From NCBI GenBank assembly GCA_045612865.1, contig JAZKZW010000082.1:5135-69134 (forward strand): a stretch of 64,000 nt of DNA, in the 5' to 3' direction. This stretch comes from Eubacteriales bacterium. Its GTDB lineage: Bacteria; Bacillota; Clostridia; Oscillospirales; CAG-272. Under the pieces are notes generated by a model, which was given only the letters and a program-made list of their open reading frames with translations, searched no databases and was not told where the DNA came from. Made by a program: the position numbers and the translations under genes. Position 1 is the first letter of the stretch. Each line of letters begins with the position of its first letter. This document shows positions 513 through 62,946 of this stretch, one piece after another.

Positions 513-541
513 ATTATAACATATTATTTTATAAAAATCAA
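513..541 (-). promoter_or_regulatory. sigma70-like promoter TTGATT-N17-TATAAT (minus strand)
   Basis: revcomp reads TTGATT +17 nt + TATAAT; member of repeated family. Confidence 0.6.
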
Positions 542-625
542 TTAAAAAAGCACTTTTGGATTAAAAAATTCCAAAAGTGCTTTTCATTTTGAATTTACGA
601 TCCAGCTCGCTCCGAGCATTAGATA

Positions 626-2365
626 TCAGAAATTATACCTACTTTCCCCTGTAATTACGTATTCCTCAATGAATATCTGCGGACTTATCCAGCCATTGTA
701 TTCATTTTTATTCGGCTTACCAACAATATCCATTTCCACATAGCCTTTGGTATTTTGAAGTTTTTCACATAAGTCGTCTGGAGCATCAAAAAGCATTATT
801 GATAAGCAATTTGGAAGTGTTATCTTAAGGGTATTATTTTTCTTTACATATACAGTTACCATATCAGCAGTCACTTTTAAGCCATCAATGGCAACGAATG
901 CTTCTTCTACATCTTTACCCCAAACCTCATCAAGTTCAGCTATTTCAAGAATTTGATTAGGATCCACATTTGTATTGCGGTAGATATAGTCTACATAATG
1001 AACTGGTTCAGATGCCATATTACGAAGGGCGCGATCGGTCGACTCAAGGAACGTATCTACGTCCTCTGGAAGAAGACCTAAACCAAAGGCGCCTTGGTGT
1101 CCAGCTACATATTGTACAAGACCAGTTCCTTCACAGATATCTTTAAAATTAGATACATCTGCTTTATCACAGCCTCGCGCCGAACCCTCATAGCAGAAAT
1201 ACTTGCGCGCATTAAGAGTAGGAGTTGCATCCATTTCTTTTTCGCGTTTTGTGAGCACTGCGCAAGGACGCTGATACTTACCCATTATTTTATTCGCGGC
1301 AAGGCCAGCTACATTTGGCTCAACCTCGCCAGGTTCAAGAAGGAATAAAAGGACTTGATGATCCATCAGATTTTCTATAGCAATACGCTCTTCAAGCAAT
1401 TCCATTGCTGCATCTTGAGCCTTCGTTTGGCGCGTCTTTACATTCTTACAAGTACGAACTGCCTGTATTACTAATTGCTCAGTTTCACCTTGTTTATGTC
1501 CACGTTTTGTAGAATATATATAATCAAAAGCCTTAAACTTCAAAAAGGATTTGAAAAGAAGTTCTTTTTCCTCTTCTTCACCACTGCGCACCATCGCATT
1601 AACAAACGGAGCAATATACCAAGCTGCGCCATGTGGAGTAATCTTATCCCCAAGAGAATAGGCATTACTTTCAGCTATTGTTGCGATGAATGGATTGTGG
1701 ATATTTTCCTCGCGGAAGCCCTTCATTATAAGATGCTTTGTTTCTATTGATTGAAGCGACATCATATCAGCTGTGTTGCCAAGCGCGACAAGGTCAAGAT
1801 AATTCTGCGCGTAAGAAGTTCCCATAAGTGAATCAAGGTATCTGCAGAATTGCCACGTGATACCAACACCCGATAGTTGCTTATTAGGATAGGTACAAAG
1901 CTGATTATTGATGACTATTGCGTTGGGCGAGACTATCTCTGCTTCGTGGTGGTCTAAAACGATGATGTCTACCCCTTTATCGATAAAGGCTAGATGATAC
2001 TCATAATCGTTAGAACTCGCATCAGGACATAGGATTAATGCATAATTGGCGGCCGCCCATTCAACATCAACATCACTAAGTCCGTGTTGTTTACCGCTAT
2101 GGATGAACCAGTCTAAGCTGTTTTGAACCCAAGCTGGAAAGTGGTCATAGAGATAGTTGATTAAGAGCGCGGACGAGGTAAATCCGTCACAGTCCGAGTC
2201 TACGATTACTAGCGCCCGGGCGCCTTGAGAAATCGTTTTTATTAAGGTTTGAGCTGCCTTACGCAATCGATCGGCGCCCAAAAGATTAAAATCATTTATA
2301 TCCGCGTCGGTTGTATTCAGCCAATGATCGATATCATAGTAGGGAATACCTCTGTTGGTTAGCAC
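626..2365 (-). CDS. recJ: RecJ-like DHH-family single-strand DNA exonuclease
   Basis: DHH motifs VDSDCDG and LDHHE; 579 aa. Confidence 0.75.
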   Translation of the reverse strand: MLTNRGIPYYDIDHWLNTTDADINDFNLLGADRLRKAAQTLIKTISQGARALVIVDSDCDGFTSSALLINYLYDHFPAWVQNSLDWFIHSGKQHGLSDVDVEWAAANYALILCPDASSNDYEYHLAFIDKGVDIIVLDHHEAEIVSPNAIVINNQLCTYPNKQLSGVGITWQFCRYLDSLMGTSYAQNYLDLVALGNTADMMSLQSIETKHLIMKGFREENIHNPFIATIAESNAYSLGDKITPHGAAWYIAPFVNAMVRSGEEEEKELLFKSFLKFKAFDYIYSTKRGHKQGETEQLVIQAVRTCKNVKTRQTKAQDAAMELLEERIAIENLMDHQVLLFLLEPGEVEPNVAGLAANKIMGKYQRPCAVLTKREKEMDATPTLNARKYFCYEGSARGCDKADVSNFKDICEGTGLVQYVAGHQGAFGLGLLPEDVDTFLESTDRALRNMASEPVHYVDYIYRNTNVDPNQILEIAELDEVWGKDVEEAFVAIDGLKVTADMVTVYVKKNNTLKITLPNCLSIMLFDAPDDLCEKLQNTKGYVEMDIVGKPNKNEYNGWISPQIFIEEYVITGESRYNF

Positions 2366-2415
2366 CTACTCTACTGCTGAATAGTGCGGATTTATATTGT
2401 CTAAAAGCTTATAGT

Positions 2416-3048
2416 TCAAAAGTAATGCACCTCCCCCATTTCATCGGTTTCCATATCTCTAACCTGTTTAGGCATAATAATTTCTCTTAAAAACTTAATT
2501 GAAATATCTTCATCAATATAGGCATCTACCCATCTCAATCCTCTTGCCGACTCAAAATTAAGAGCAATATGCCACCAAGTCATATCATCAAAATAAACAT
2601 CAACTCCATATTGAGATCGACGTATTTGATCATGATGAATACCCTTAGCCTTTTTTTCGTCAACAATTTTTTGTAATTGTGCTTTACCCTTTTCAAGATT
2701 GGTAGTGTAAATCACTCCACGTTTAAAATACTTTCTTGGAGATTTAATAAATCTGTCGGTATCTTGAAAAGTCATATCCTTAAAAGCAGTCAAATTCATT
2801 TTTGTAATATAGCGACCAATAGTATTTTTTGACTTTTCTTTTTTGCTCCATTGAATTACATGATTCCATTCATCAGGAATATATGGAATATCTAGCTCTT
2901 TCAATAGAGGTAAAAAGGTTGATGTATCATAAGGATCTACAGTATCTCTGTAATATGATTTGCAAATTGTATGATAGTTACCGCTTCTTTTTTTCCAAAA
3001 GTTAGTTTCTGGTTCAAGTCGTTTACATTTATCACAAAAGATATTCAC
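2416..3048 (-). CDS. hypothetical protein (N-terminal Cys cluster)
   Basis: 210 aa ORF, CDKCKR...C motif. Confidence 0.35.
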   Translation of the reverse strand: MNIFCDKCKRLEPETNFWKKRSGNYHTICKSYYRDTVDPYDTSTFLPLLKELDIPYIPDEWNHVIQWSKKEKSKNTIGRYITKMNLTAFKDMTFQDTDRFIKSPRKYFKRGVIYTTNLEKGKAQLQKIVDEKKAKGIHHDQIRRSQYGVDVYFDDMTWWHIALNFESARGLRWVDAYIDEDISIKFLREIIMPKQVRDMETDEMGEVHYF

Positions 3049-62167: not shown

Positions 62168-62395
62168 TTAATAAATACCCTTGAGGCAGTTTACTATTGA
62201 ACGAATCCATGTGTGAACGCCAGTGAAAATCGCGCCAACTGCAATAGATCCAAAGAGCGCAATAATGATACTTGTGTAGAAAGAGAGTGTTGTTAAATTC
62301 CACAAAAGAACGCCGCCCAGCAAAGGGAAAATGCAAAGCAATAGAATAATACAAATAATACAAAAAGCTCGTCTTGCTTGTACTTTTGAAATCAT
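62168..62395 (-). CDS. small membrane protein
   Basis: 75 aa, hydrophobic. Confidence 0.3.
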   Translation of the reverse strand: MISKVQARRAFCIICIILLLCIFPLLGGVLLWNLTTLSFYTSIIIALFGSIAVGAIFTGVHTWIRSIVNCLKGIY

Positions 62396-62604
62396 CGAAT
62401 CTTTCTCCTTACCTGTTGAATAATATAGTTTACTTCGGACTCAAATCCATCATCATTTAGGTTATAACGATCAAGCACTTGGTTAAAAATGGCAGGATCG
62501 CCAATATCGACATCATCACGATGAAGATCAACAAGAAATGCAATAGCGCATTCTACATTAGCATAGTGATCAGCGACAGCTAAGTGGGTGGCATCAAAGA
62601 TCAT
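62392..62604 (-). CDS. hypothetical protein
   Basis: 70 aa ORF. Confidence 0.3.
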   Translation of the reverse strand: MIFDATHLAVADHYANVECAIAFLVDLHRDDVDIGDPAIFNQVLDRYNLNDDGFESEVNYIIQQVRRKIR

Positions 62605-62830
62605 AAGAACTTACCTCCTCAAGACTATAATAACAAGCTTCTACAACGCTGTCCCAGTCTGCATCAAGAATGTTGATAAGGTCATTATGCATTTCGAGAT
62701 ATTGACCAACGCATTCTTCCGCGCAATACTCCATCTCCTCTTTGTCTAAAATATCTACATTGGTGCAGATAAATTCTTCAACAACGGAAAACAGATAAGA
62801 ATTACCAACGGTTACTTTAATTGATCCCAT
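62594..62830 (-). CDS. hypothetical protein
   Basis: 78 aa ORF. Confidence 0.3.
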   Translation of the reverse strand: MGSIKVTVGNSYLFSVVEEFICTNVDILDKEEMEYCAEECVGQYLEMHNDLINILDADWDSVVEACYYSLEEVSSYDL

Positions 62831-62917
62831 AGTTTTTTTCCTCTCTTTCTTTATTACATATATATTATATCATAAAATTTTATAAAAATCAATGAGGACA
62901 TCGAAAAGGAGAAGTAT

Positions 62918-62946
62918 TTGACTTCTTTTTAATTTTATATTATAAT
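62918..62946 (+). promoter_or_regulatory. plus-strand sigma70 consensus promoter TTGACT-N17-TATAAT at the strand switch
   Basis: consensus hexamers, 17 nt spacer, 25 nt before ATG 62972. Confidence 0.55.

What the first reader, a model, noticed from the sequence alone, without database searches (positions are those of the whole stretch)
513..62946. One ~50 nt promoter+leader module is repeated before almost every gene; the element encodes its own sigma-70
TTGATT/TTGACA-N17-TATAAT, followed by the leader ATATATGTAATCAAAAG-AAAGGA, recurs at least 30 times. Representative minus-strand copies are at 513-541, 7346-7374, 12603-12632, 22547-22575, 26858-26886, 43360-43388 and 45565-45593; one plus-strand copy is at 62918-62946. 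It includes copies in front of single tRNAs. The match to the host sigma-A consensus is perfect in several copies. A full-length sigma-70 family gene (28216..29127) is also present. It is unclear which sigma drives these promoters. The conserved transcribed leader beyond the -10 suggests an additional RNA-level signal, for example processing or translation initiation.
Basis: seen in the sequence. Interest (0 to 1): 0.55.

Follow-up and report, generated by a model that had tools for sequence, protein, structure and literature searches.

The report
Repeated strong promoter cassettes in phage
About 32 near-identical copies of a strong bacterial-type promoter, each heading a short group of genes or RNA genes, organise this 64-kb stretch of an uncultured phage of Gram-positive gut or rumen bacteria. 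This is a familiar phage strategy, seen here in an unstudied phage group that also encodes its own housekeeping-type sigma factor.

Summary
The repeat is real. TTGAYW-N17-TATAAT occurs 25 times against 0.08 expected. A position-weight scan finds 32 copies, all pointing the same way as the genes they precede.

The repeat is a sigma-A-type promoter cassette with these parts, in order:
- a stop codon or terminator hairpin
- a TTGATT -35 box
- a T-tract/A-tract spacer of exactly 17 nt
- a TRTG extended -10 and TATAAT
- an A/T-only discriminator and a T-G-T start triplet 7 nt after the -10
- an unstructured, purine-rich leader of about 25-30 nt, then the Shine-Dalgarno sequence and ATG

- There is one copy per transcription unit (about 32 copies for about 90 CDS and 28 RNA genes), not one per gene.
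- Only one copy is a perfect TTGACA-N17-TATAAT.
- The 17-nt 'leader' is exact in only three copies.

Alignments with related phages show invariance from TTAA-TTGATT through about +2; beyond that only base composition is kept. The same cassette also drives an amber-suppressor tRNA and a ROOL RNA. The conserved part is therefore a transcription signal, not an RNA signal.

The sigma gene is real. It is SigA-like, lacks region 1.1, carries R584K, and sits behind a cassette copy itself. Host sigma-A therefore probably starts expression.

The closest analogues are T4 'über' early promoters, PeSL cassettes and the phage K early/middle promoters. This is a new member of a known kind.

The parts
62918..62946 (+). 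Only plus-strand copy (TTGACT-N17-TATAAT, no TG). It faces away from the 62864 copy and heads the plus-strand genes; the ATG is at 62984.
62864..62892 (-). Cassette copy, ATATATGTAA class; drives CDS 62594-62830.
62076..62104 (-). Cassette copy, ATATATGTAA class; drives CDS 61229-62041. Hairpin 62112-62137 lies just upstream.
61174..61202 (-). Cassette copy (TTGAAA -35), in tandem with the 61074 copy upstream of CDS 60637-61032.
61074..61102 (-). Weaker copy (TTGAAA-N17-TGATATAAT, matrix score 11.5), 41 nt before the ATG of CDS 60637-61032.
59591..59619 (-). Cassette copy (TTGATA -35, no TG); drives CDS 58726-59547.
57739..57767 (-). Cassette copy, ATTATAA class; drives CDS 57402-57710.
56686..56714 (-). 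Cassette copy. The TAA stop of the upstream ORF (56715-56717) touches the -35 box. Drives CDS 56355-56651.
53561..53589 (-). Cassette copy directly after tRNA-Trp; drives small CDS 53382-53522.
53353..53381 (-). Cassette copy, ATATATGTAA class; drives CDS 53067-53318.
51007..51035 (-). Cassette copy (TAAAAT -10) with the exact 17-nt leader; drives CDS 50613-50972.
47433..47461 (-). Cassette copy heading a non-coding stretch that contains tRNA 47186-47257 and about 1 kb of unassigned RNA-like sequence.
45565..45593 (-). Cassette copy with the exact 17-nt leader; hairpin 45606-45643 upstream. Drives small ORF 45397-45531 and tRNA-Lys.
45230..45258 (-). Cassette copy (TTGAAA -35), followed by a conserved non-coding 124 nt and then tRNA-Gln.
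43360..43388 (-). Cassette copy 38 nt upstream of the ROOL RNA (42702-43321). Conserved at 86.6% with relative L001.
42230..42258 (-). Cassette copy (TTGAAA -35); drives CDS 41829-42197.
41333..41361 (-). Cassette copy. The TAA stop of the upstream ORF (41362-41364) touches the -35 box. Drives the flotillin/SPFH-like gene 39756-41288.
39690..39718 (-). Terminator-promoter composite: hairpin 39716-39741 runs into a TTTATT -35 box. Drives 39491-39658 through the NAPRTase gene.
37198..37226 (-). Terminator-promoter composite: hairpin 37225-37248, TTTATT -35. Drives 36886-37161 and the small ORFs that follow.
33281..33309 (-). Cassette copy (TAAAAT -10, exact 17-nt leader). The upstream TAA stop (33310-33312) touches the -35 box. 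Drives the major-vault-protein-like gene 30767-33235.
30692..30720 (-). Terminator-promoter composite (hairpin 30723-30752); drives the HNH gene 30124-30660 and following ORFs.
29164..29192 (-). Cassette copy in front of the sigma gene. Nearly invariant across 8 related phages.
28216..29127 (-). Phage sigma factor, 303 aa. SigA/RpoD-like with regions 1.2-4.2, no region 1.1, and R584K in E. coli numbering.
26858..26886 (-). Terminator-promoter composite (hairpin 26886-26913); drives 26341-26823 and following ORFs.
23948..23976 (-). Terminator-promoter composite (hairpin 23982-24004); drives 23627-23911 and following ORFs.
22547..22575 (-). Cassette copy 27 nt upstream of the amber-suppressor tRNA (anticodon CTA, 22444-22519).
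21852..21880 (-). Terminator-promoter composite (hairpin 21880-21909, overlapping the first T of the -35 box); drives gyrB 19917-21818.
15649..15677 (-). Terminator-promoter composite (hairpin 15681-15705); drives 14850-15611 and the NAD-dependent ligase gene.
12603..12631 (-). The only exact TTGACA-N17-TATAAT copy (no TG). It overlaps the 3' end of ORF 12615-12866 and drives 12280-12537.
9898..9926 (-). Cassette copy (TTGACT, no TG); drives 9469-9852.
9444..9472 (-). Cassette copy (TTGACT). The -35 box overlaps the upstream stop codon. Drives 8427-9380.
7346..7374 (-). Terminator-promoter composite (hairpin 7373-7397). Heads the roughly 6.7-kb unit that includes dnaB and the recJ-like gene.
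513..541 (-). Terminator-promoter composite (hairpin 545-585, -20 kcal/mol); drives 289-477.

Best explanation
The repeats are a family of about 32 strong promoters read by a primary-type (sigma-A-like) sigma factor. They are packaged as compact 'end-of-gene / promoter / leader' cassettes. These cassettes cut the early/replication/tRNA arm of an uncultured phage into roughly 30 short, independently started transcription units. Contigs of related phages are about 123-140 kb, and the host is probably in the Bacillota.

Anatomy of a cassette, 5' to 3':
- Either the TAA stop codon of the upstream gene touching the -35 box, or (11 copies) an intrinsic-terminator hairpin whose U-tract is the TTGATTTT of the promoter itself.
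- A -35 box, TTGATT.
- A spacer of exactly 17 nt made of a T-tract then an A-tract.
- TRTG, the Gram-positive form of the extended -10, followed by TATAAT.
- A six-base A/T-only discriminator.
- A T-G-T (or T-A-A) start triplet centred 7-8 nt after the -10.
- A leader of about 25-30 nt that is 79% purine, 4% C and predicted to have no structure.
- The Shine-Dalgarno sequence and the ATG. The -10 end to ATG distance is 28-45 nt in 24 of 27 protein-coding cases.

Each conserved piece beyond the two hexamers corresponds to a described core-promoter element. The module is therefore a maximised promoter plus a translation-friendly leader, not a promoter plus a separate RNA signal.

Inferred, not shown:
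- Host sigma-A holoenzyme fires these promoters at the start of infection, because the phage sigma gene itself lies behind a copy.
- The phage's own SigA-like sigma keeps the residues that read the -10 and the TG. It probably reads the same class later.
- As a side effect, the repeated cassettes serve as sites of recombination that shuffle gene cassettes.
For: Occurrence and orientation:
- 25 exact matches against 0.08 expected.
- 32 copies by matrix scan, 31 of them scoring at or above 23 against a shuffle maximum of 19.
- All 32 point the same way as the downstream gene.

Promoter features:
- Information content is high from -4 to about +48 relative to the start of the -35 box.
- 25 of 31 minus-strand copies have TG before the -10; 27 of 31 have Y-R at position 7 or 8; 15 of 31 have TGT exactly at position 7.
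- These features match published core-promoter elements: a T-tract/A-tract/G-rich spacer, an AT-rich discriminator and AG-rich initial transcribed region in Firmicutes, and a YRY start element 7-8 bp after the -10 (PMC12641261).

Leader:
- The -10 to ATG distance is 28-45 nt.
- Leaders are unstructured and purine-rich.

Terminators:
- The strongest terminator-like hairpins in 20-40 kb each abut a copy, with tails reading TGATTTT or TATTGATTTT.
- 11 copies have such a hairpin.

Conservation in relatives:
- The sigma-gene promoter and the MVP-gene promoter are invariant from (TTAA)TTGA.TTT to about +2. The flanking coding sequence and the leader diverge, in phages whose sigma proteins are only 62-71% identical.
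- Copies resemble their positional orthologues (0.65-0.85 identity) more than the average paralogue (0.59-0.70) in 8 of 9 cases.
- The same cassette occurs about once per 2 kb, almost always on the coding strand, in 15 further loci of the clade.

Non-coding targets:
- Copies drive a tRNA, the ROOL RNA and other non-coding stretches.

Sigma:
- It is RpoD/SigA-like. Y425, Y430, W433, W434, Q437, H455, E458, E585, R586, R588 and Q589 are kept.

Recombination:
- In relative L001 the MVP gene carries a 37198-type cassette instead of the 33281-type. The junction lies in the leader, and about 8 kb of intervening genes are absent.
Against: - No transcription start site data exist; all starts are predicted.
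- The -35 consensus is TTGATT, not TTGACA. With the whole -35 hexamer neutralised in the scan, C at the fifth position occurs in 16 of 149 copies, about 11%. A promoter optimised purely for a canonical sigma-A would be expected to use TTGACA.
- The spacer is almost invariant between orthologous promoters. This is more than sigma recognition is known to need and could mark a bound protein.
- The host is not identified. MAG labels (Bacilli, Erysipelotrichaceae, Clostridium) are only a weak hint, so 'host consensus' cannot be checked.
- The recombination role rests on one clear case.
Confidence: 0.75

Rival explanations
1. The cassettes form a phage-private promoter class. On this view they are read mainly by the phage's own SigA-like sigma, whose R584K change and missing region 1.1 tune it to TTGATT -35 boxes (T or A rather than C at -31). 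This would give an orthogonal, self-reinforcing transcription circuit.
For: - R584 is the sigma-70 residue that reads -31. R584C relaxes specificity at -31, and R584A prefers A:T there (PMC2613000).
- The phage sigma has K at that position, as do most of the 120 homologues.
- The fifth base of the -35 box is T or A in about 89% of copies across the clade.
- It is the only freely varying base in the sigma-promoter footprint.
Against: - The sigma gene itself sits behind a copy of the class, so some other holoenzyme must fire it first unless sigma is carried in the virion.
- Phages whose sigma has R at position 584 (L007, L018, L019) show the same -35 bias: T8/A3/C1, against T68/A18/C9 in K-type phages.
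- Extended -10 promoters depend little on the -35 box.
- All other base-contacting residues match host-type SigA.
Confidence: 0.15
2. The repeats matter chiefly as recombination modules, like the PeSL cassettes of T4-like phages. On this view their high similarity is maintained by, and selected for, exchange of gene cassettes between copies. Promoter activity would be secondary.
For: - The anatomy matches PeSLs: upstream stop codon, sigma-70-like promoter, stem-loop, then Shine-Dalgarno and ATG (PMC2839356).
- There is a promoter swap and an 8-kb deletion bounded by cassettes in L001.
- The stretch between the 41333 and 33281 copies varies widely in gene content among relatives.
- Several ATATATGTAA-class copies are as similar to each other (0.89-0.91) as to their orthologues.
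Against: - In 8 of 9 cases copies are closer to positional orthologues than to the average paralogue, so they are old and individually conserved rather than homogenised.
- Copies head core genes (gyrB, sigma, ligase, dnaB unit), not mainly ORFans.
- Gene content also varies inside transcription units.
- Only about a third of copies carry a stem-loop.
Confidence: 0.3
3. One reading: the transcribed sequence beyond the -10 (ATATATGTAATCAAAAG...) is a discrete RNA-level signal for processing or for translation initiation.
For: - Information content stays above background for about 20 nt after the -10.
- The -10 to ATG distance is tightly constrained.
- The A/G-rich, unstructured leader probably does help ribosome loading.
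Against: - The exact 17-mer occurs in 3 copies only.
- Orthologous footprints end at about +2.
- The conserved ATATATGT also precedes a tRNA and the ROOL RNA.
- No structure is predicted: MFE is 0.0 kcal/mol in 16 of 31 leaders.
- TTGATT...AATCAA dyad symmetry is present in only 5 copies.
Confidence: 0.08
4. The invariant spacer (T-tract, A-tract, TATG) is the operator of an unidentified phage or host DNA-binding protein. That protein would switch the whole class on or off together, for example to shut off early genes.
For: - The spacer is nearly invariant between orthologous promoters and highly similar among paralogues. This exceeds what sigma contacts require.
- Phage K authors propose such a factor acting on their conserved early/middle promoters (PMC9241854).
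Against: - No candidate regulator was found among 30 proteins scanned.
- Spacer T/A tracts and TRTG are themselves known to raise promoter strength, by up to 600-fold (PMC12641261).
- The spacer has no dyad symmetry.
Confidence: 0.15

Closest known systems
T4 early ('über' UP/-35/TGn/-10) promoters (Hinton 2010, PMC2988021)
   Same: - Many copies of a very strong host-type promoter at the front of prereplicative genes.
- -35, TGn and -10 are all present together.
- There are extra regions of consensus beyond the hexamers.
- They also drive tRNA and replication genes.
   Different: - No conserved A-rich UP element upstream of the -35 box; information content falls to background beyond -4.
- The -35 box is TTGATT.
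- The extended -10 has the Gram-positive TRTG form.
- The phage encodes a primary-like sigma rather than AsiA/MotA-type appropriators. None was detected among the 30 window proteins scanned.
PeSL (promoter-early stem-loop) regulatory cassettes of T4-like phages (Arbiol 2010, PMC2839356; Comeau 2014, PMC4122927)
   Same: - A composite unit running from the upstream stop codon, through a sigma-70-like promoter and a stem-loop terminator, to the Shine-Dalgarno and ATG of the next gene.
- About 50 copies per genome.
- Associated with indels and gene swaps.
   Different: - The hairpin occurs only upstream of the -35 box and in about one third of copies.
- Copies head core genes, tRNAs and a large ncRNA as well as ORFans.
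- Unrelated phage lineage and host phylum.
- Recombination is supported by one case only; mini-circles were not tested.
Early/middle promoters of Herelleviridae such as Staphylococcus phage K (PMC9241854)
   Same: - A large Gram-positive phage of about 140 kb with tRNAs.
- Dozens of promoters (83 in phage K); the early and middle ones are highly conserved and sigma-70-like.
- Long ncRNAs next to tRNAs have their own early promoter.
   Different: - Phage K relies on host sigma-A plus an anti-sigma and an SPO1 gp34-like late sigma. Here the only sigma seen is a SigA paralogue.
- No nucleotide match to any deposited phage.
Bacterial primary sigma factors (SigA/RpoD), for the sigma gene
   Same: - Regions 1.2, 2, 3 and 4.
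- Highly significant full-length alignment to solved Firmicute SigA chains (B. subtilis 7ckq, 1.2e-86).
- About 52% identity in tblastn to SigA-like sequences in records labelled Enterococcus or Staphylococcus phage.
- The residues that read the -10, the TG and the -35 are conserved.
   Different: - Lacks region 1.1; only a 26-residue acidic N-terminus is present.
- Scores fall below the NCBIfam RpoD cut-offs.
- Substitutions R436K, T440S, R441K and R584K.
- Forms its own metagenomic clade of proteins of about 290-315 aa.

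Membership tests
sigma-70/sigma-A-dependent -35/extended -10 promoter | -10 hexamer TATAAT | tested here: met
   29 of the 31 minus-strand copies have TATAAT and 2 have TAAAAT.
sigma-70/sigma-A-dependent -35/extended -10 promoter | -35 hexamer related to TTGACA, with a 17±1 bp spacer | tested here: met
   The spacer is 17 nt in all copies. 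Among the 31 minus-strand copies the hexamers are TTGATT 21, TTGAAA 4, TTGACT 2, TTTATT 2, TTGACA 1 and TTGATA 1, so mostly 4 of 6 matches.
sigma-70/sigma-A-dependent -35/extended -10 promoter | TGn / TRTG extended -10 (Gram-positive '-16 region') | tested here: met
   TG is present in 25 of 31 copies; the consensus is TATG-N-TATAAT.
sigma-70/sigma-A-dependent -35/extended -10 promoter | Same orientation as, and a short distance upstream of, a gene start | tested here: met
   32 of 32 copies point the same way as the downstream gene. The -10 to ATG distance is 28-45 nt in 24 of 27 protein-coding cases.
sigma-70/sigma-A-dependent -35/extended -10 promoter | Transcripts initiate 6-8 nt downstream of the -10 | not testable with these tools
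   No RNA data are available. Only a Y-R start triplet at position 7 or 8 in 27 of 31 copies.
PeSL cassettes of T4-like phages | Strong sigma-70-like promoter bounded by the upstream stop codon and the downstream Shine-Dalgarno and ATG | tested here: met
   Stop codons touch the -35 box at 33281, 41333 and 56686. The Shine-Dalgarno and ATG lie within 45 nt.
PeSL cassettes of T4-like phages | A stem-loop terminator is an integral part of the motif | tested here: inconclusive
   11 of 31 copies have a strong hairpin abutting the -35 box; the others have none.
PeSL cassettes of T4-like phages | Concentrated in hyperplastic regions in front of ORFans | tested here: not met
   Copies also head gyrB, sigma, the ligase unit, the dnaB unit, MVP-like and flotillin-like genes, a tRNA and ROOL.
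PeSL cassettes of T4-like phages | Mediate indels or replacements by recombination between copies; mini-circles | tested here: inconclusive
   One promoter swap and deletion in L001 with its junction in the leader. The region between cassettes is variable. Circles cannot be tested here.
T4-type 'über' early promoters | A/T-rich UP element at -40 to -60 in addition to -35/TGn/-10 | tested here: not met
   Information content is at most 0.3 bit at every position upstream of -4. That space is coding sequence or a hairpin.
Primary (group 1) sigma factor RpoD/SigA | Regions 1.2, 2, 3 and 4 with the DNA-contact residues | tested here: met
   Pfam regions r1_2, r2, r3 and r4; alignment to chains 7ckq and 7l7b.
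Primary (group 1) sigma factor RpoD/SigA | Region 1.1 and a full-length equivalog score | tested here: not met
   The alignment starts at residue 97 of B. subtilis SigA. NCBIfam scores are 354.9 (cut-off 572) and 324.7 (cut-off 354). It is a primary-like, group-2-style sigma.

The most novel reading that the evidence does not exclude
The phage clade may run an orthogonal promoter dialect. Its SigA paralogue (no region 1.1, mostly K instead of R at the residue that reads -31), together with a -35 box that avoids C at -31 and an invariant spacer, would form a matched pair. The phage could then keep transcribing about 30 units after host sigma-A is disabled. The two discriminator/start sub-classes (ATATATG-type, mostly above 32 kb; ATTATAA-type, mostly replication genes) would then be temporally or nucleotide-pool-distinct regulons.
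Probability: 0.15. Interest if true: 0.55.

Novelty: new member of a known kind. Interest (0 to 1): 0.3.

Why it matters
- It gives a ready-made promoter map, about 32 predicted start sites, for an uncultured but widespread gut/rumen phage clade. The sigma search alone returned thousands of hits, and the 120 best listed are 61-75% identical.
- The whole Firmicute core-promoter 'grammar' (spacer tracts, TRTG, AT-only discriminator, YRY start, AG-rich initial region) can be read from one genome. That is useful for building strong, compact Gram-positive expression parts.
- It identifies the promoters of a ROOL RNA and of an amber-suppressor tRNA, so the timing of both can be tested.
- The pairing of a region-1.1-less, R584K sigma with a TTGATT -35 box is a small, testable question about how -35 recognition works.
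- In kind, however, this is what large lytic phages are already known to do.

Tried and rejected
- Identifying the phage. Megablast of 8 kb against deposited phages found nothing. An exact-pattern scan of IMG/VR with a strict 38-nt module pattern found nothing. Looking up the exact sigma protein found nothing. A search for relatives of the plus-strand gene 63448-63864, meant to reach the other arm of the genome, found nothing. Whether late genes use another promoter class therefore stayed untested.
- Covariation between sigma residue 584 (K or R) and the base at -31. There is none: T68/A18/C9 in K-type phages against T8/A3/C1 in R-type. The number of R-type copies is small.
- TTGATT...AATCAA dyad symmetry as an operator or RNA hairpin. 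It is present in only 5 copies, and TTGACT copies show no compensating change. Rejected.
- RNA structure in the leaders. None is predicted.
- The generic sigma-70 consensus scanner does not discriminate in this AT-rich DNA: 70 sites found against 59.9 expected. Only the family-specific matrix separates the copies.
- Pfam and PHROGs scans of 30 window proteins for a second sigma, an anti-sigma or a repressor found nothing.
- tblastn of the sigma against deposited phages returned mostly SigA-like sequences at about 50% identity, in short unannotated fecal 'Bacteriophage sp.' contigs and assorted phage records. It returned no close cultured relative.
- Concerted evolution as the main cause of the similarity. 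Orthologues are closer than the average paralogue in 8 of 9 cases, so this is rejected as the main cause.

Full report

Yes. TTGAYW-N17-TATAAT occurs 25 times in the window. Dinucleotide-preserving shuffles give a mean of 0.08 and never more than 2. Allowing TAAAAT as the -10 gives 27.

I built a 45-nt weight matrix from these copies and scanned both strands. This gives 32 copies. 31 score at or above 23, while composition-matched shuffles never exceed 19. The exception, 61074, scores 11.5 and was kept because it reads TTGAAA-N17-TGATATAAT. Weaker hits on the opposite strand are echoes of the AT-rich, partly self-complementary sequence.

31 copies are on the minus strand. The one plus-strand copy (62918-62946) stands back-to-back with the 62864 copy, at the point where gene orientation flips. 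So all 32 copies point the same way as the gene downstream.

**2.

- A rough gene call, with TAG read as sense (see section 10), gives about 90 CDS and 28 RNA genes on the minus strand. Only 27 of 60 intergenic gaps of 60 nt or more hold a copy. The module therefore heads transcription units, about one per 2 kb and roughly one gene in four. It does not precede 'almost every gene'.
- Only one copy (12603) is a perfect TTGACA-N17-TATAAT. The family consensus is TTGATT, in 21 of the 31 minus-strand copies.
- The 17-nt 'leader' ATATATGTAATCAAAAG is exact in three copies. With up to three mismatches it sits right after a cassette's -10 box in seven, and an eighth match lies in the 43360 leader shifted by 4 nt. 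A shorter WWATATGTWA follows the -10 in 15 copies.
- Only the suppressor tRNA clearly has a copy of its own.

**3. Anatomy**

Information content is above background from 4 nt before the -35 box to about 20 nt after the -10. In order:

- T-T-a-a, then TTGATT.
- A T-run, then an A-run, then T-A-T-G-(T/A).
- TATAAT.
- Six A/T-only bases.
- G-T-A-A or T-A-A-A-A.
- An A/G-rich run.

The spacer is 17 nt in every copy. TG precedes the -10 in 25 of 31 copies, in the TRTG form typical of Gram-positive promoters (TRTGn motif cited in PMC2613000). A pyrimidine-purine step lies 7 or 8 nt after the -10 in 27 of 31 copies, and T-G-T is centred exactly at position 7 in 15.

The distance from the end of the -10 to the ATG is 28-45 nt in 24 of 27 protein-coding cases. 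The leader is 79% purine and 4% C, against 55% and 17% for the strand as a whole. Its median predicted folding energy is -0.2 kcal/mol, against -5.8 for random 45-mers. The predicted energy is exactly 0.0 in 16 of 31 leaders.

Eleven copies are preceded by a strong hairpin whose T-tail is the -35 box and T-run of the promoter itself. In others the TAA stop of the upstream gene touches the -35 box, as at 33281, 41333 and 56686.

**4. Where the conserved block ends**

I recovered relatives through the sigma protein and the vault-protein-like protein:

- one IMG/VR contig of 123 kb;
- seven metagenome contigs at least 12 kb long, the largest about 140 kb;
- seven contigs binned into gut or rumen MAGs.

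They are syntenic with the window at about 70-77% nucleotide identity in genes. They carry the same cassette about once per 2 kb, almost always on the coding strand.

I aligned the promoter of the sigma gene from eight phages whose sigma proteins are only 62-71% identical. It is invariant from TTGA.TTT through TTATGTTATAAT plus about five bases. The upstream coding sequence and the leader diverge. The promoter of the vault-like gene gives the same picture: invariance runs from TTAATTGATTTT to ATATATGT and then stops.

In 8 of 9 cases copies are closer to their positional orthologues (mean 0.65-0.85 identity over 55 nt) than to the average paralogue (0.59-0.70). They are therefore old and individually maintained by selection, not recently copied.

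**5. What it is**

Every conserved piece has a described counterpart in bacterial core promoters (PMC12641261):

- a T-rich then A-rich then G-containing spacer, whose composition can change strength by up to 600-fold;
- an AT- or AG-rich discriminator in Terrabacteria;
- a Y-R-Y (or Y-R-R) 'start' element that fixes initiation 7-8 bp after the -10;
- an AG-rich initial transcribed region in Firmicutes.

The same block precedes a tRNA (22547 copy, 27 nt upstream), the ROOL RNA (43360 copy, 38 nt upstream) and other non-coding stretches (45230, 47433). The shared part cannot therefore be a translation signal.

The best reading is a family of maximised sigma-A-type promoters fused to short, structure-free, purine-rich leaders. 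Often the terminator or stop codon of the preceding unit is fused on as well. The unstructured leader probably does help translation, but through its composition, not through a motif.

**6. Which sigma?**

The 303-aa protein has regions 1.2 to 4.2. Its best matches are the RpoD/SigA models, but below their cut-offs. Its alignment to B. subtilis SigA begins at SigA residue 97, so region 1.1 is missing. Only a 26-residue acidic N-terminus precedes region 1.2.

- Residues kept (E. coli numbering): Y425, Y430, W433, W434, Q437, H455 and E458, which read the -10 and the TG; and E585, R586, R588 and Q589 in region 4.2.
- Residues changed: R436K, T440S, R441K and R584K.

R584 reads position -31. R584C relaxes specificity there and R584A prefers A:T (PMC2613000). 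That is suggestive, because these promoters avoid C at -31. With the -35 hexamer neutralised in the scan, the fifth base across all loci is T 105, A 28, C 16.

The link fails the one test available. Phages of the clade whose sigma has R at position 584 show the same bias (T8/A3/C1, against T68/A18/C9). Also, the sigma gene sits behind a copy of the class in all eight phages, so another holoenzyme must fire it first.

I infer that host sigma-A starts the programme and that the phage sigma can read the same promoters later. This is an inference, not a result.

**7. Sub-classes**

Fifteen copies have the WWATATGTWA form, with T-G-T at position 7. Thirteen of them lie above 32 kb (the tRNA/ncRNA region and the genes toward the 62.9-kb strand-switch point). 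They tend to have A at -13.

The ATTATAA-type copies mostly head the replication genes below 32 kb. The association with position has Fisher p = 0.009 and the association with the -13 base has p = 0.011. Each form is kept at orthologous positions. This could reflect timing, or sensitivity to the initiating nucleotide (G or A). It is unexplained.

**8. Recombination**

In relative L001 the vault-like gene is preceded by a 37198-type cassette (hairpin, TTTATT, AAATTATAAAA). In the window and five other relatives it is preceded by the 33281-type. The junction falls in the leader at a shared ATGAAAGA, and about 8 kb of genes are absent.

The stretch between the 41333 and 33281 copies varies greatly in gene content among relatives. 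This resembles PeSL-mediated shuffling in T4-like phages (PMC2839356; PMC4122927). It is one clear case, and gene content also varies inside transcription units.

**9. Comparison with known systems**

- T4 early promoters combine -35, TGn and -10 with extra consensus regions (PMC2988021). Here no UP element is conserved.
- PeSL cassettes have nearly the same layout, from stop codon to ATG. Here the hairpin is optional and sits only upstream, and core genes are served as well.
- Phage K has 83 promoters, with highly conserved sigma-70-like early and middle ones and ncRNAs next to tRNAs (PMC9241854).

The finding is a new member of this known kind, in an uncharacterised clade.

**10. Other things seen**

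- A full-length ROOL RNA lies at 42702-43321 (161.6 bits).
- The phage appears to read TAG as glutamine.
  - None of 31 confident ORFs ends in TAG (19 end in TAA, 12 in TGA).
  - Five homing-endonuclease-like ORFs carry 1-9 in-frame TAGs. One of these falls at the Q of a GIY-YIG 'YIGQS' motif.
  - The CTA-anticodon tRNA is 80% identical to the phage tRNA-Gln.
- About 1 kb at 46131-47185 is non-coding and contains an internal repeated motif with no Rfam match.

Noticed in passing
window 42702-43321 (-): Full-length ROOL RNA (RF03087, 161.6 bits, model positions 1-574). It sits next to a tRNA cluster, with a cassette copy 38 nt upstream as its likely promoter. The promoter and the 5' region are conserved in relatives L001, L004 and L008.
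   Followed up: partly
window 22444-22519 (-) and the whole window: An amber-suppressor tRNA (anticodon CTA) has its own cassette copy. None of 31 confident ORFs ends in TAG (19 TAA, 12 TGA). This tRNA is 80% identical to the phage tRNA-Gln. Together these suggest that TAG is read as glutamine (code-15-like recoding).
   Followed up: partly
window 24949-25761, 54449-55258, 57764-58594, 11070-12227, 18491-19423 (all -): The ORFs with in-frame TAG codons (9, 4, 2, 4 and 1 respectively) all look like homing endonucleases. Three are GIY-YIG, one is LAGLIDADG-like, and 24949-25761 has cysteine-rich motifs. One TAG falls at the Q of a 'YIGQS' motif. Core genes in the window avoid TAG. These assignments rest on motifs read by eye, not on a domain search.
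   Followed up: partly
window 62984-63448 (+): The first plus-strand ORF joins with ORF 63119-63448 into one reading frame if the in-frame TAG at 63107-63109 is read through.
   Followed up: no
window 46131-47185 (-): About 1 kb with stop codons in all frames and raised G+C. It lies downstream of the 47433 copy and contains two copies of a motif (GAGCAAAUGGCGACC...CUAG.GGGU...AAAAUG.GCGGCG...CCGACCU.AUGG). There is no Rfam match. The folding z-score is only -2.15. Part of it is conserved in L001. It may be an undescribed ncRNA.
   Followed up: partly
window 45106-45229 (-): A 124-nt non-coding stretch between the 45230 copy and tRNA-Gln. It has a core (GCGATGCAATATAA) conserved in L001 and L005, and may be a small RNA.
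   Followed up: no
window 47186-47257 and 47994-48066 (-); 52677-52751 (-); 44349-44425 (-): Rfam finds two tRNAs that ARAGORN missed. One tRNA is reported by ARAGORN with a four-base 'agtt' anticodon. A weak tmRNA-model hit (22.6 bits, below the cut-off of 47) probably marks a tRNA-like fragment.
   Followed up: no
window 30767-33235 (-) and 39756-41288 (-): An 822-aa protein carries major-vault-protein shoulder and repeat domains, and a 510-aa protein is SPFH/flotillin-like. Each has its own cassette and both are conserved across the clade. Among deposited phages, the vault-like protein matches only three uncultured huge phages (462-735 kb) at 40% identity.
   Followed up: partly
window 33310-41288 compared with L001, L004-L010: This is a hyperplastic region. 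Gene content between the flotillin-like and vault-like genes differs in every relative (NAPRTase, isochorismatase, THF dehydrogenase, small ORFs). L001 lacks the whole stretch.
   Followed up: partly
sigma homologues P0001-P0120: A large metagenomic family of SigA-like proteins of about 290-315 aa without region 1.1. Most have K at the position of E. coli R584 ([ST]KER[IV]RQ); one sub-clade has R. Contigs reach about 140 kb. Some are binned into MAGs labelled Bacilli, Erysipelotrichaceae or Clostridium, and one into Methanobrevibacter.
   Followed up: partly
window 26919-28106 (-) compared with relatives: The gene after sigma is an RNA ligase in all relatives, but of different families: PHA02142 plus RNA_ligase in the window, L007 and L009; T4 Rnl1-type in L004 and L010; and an unassigned or only faintly RNA-ligase-like 474-485-aa protein in L005 and L008. 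This is a replacement of one version by another at a fixed position.
   Followed up: no
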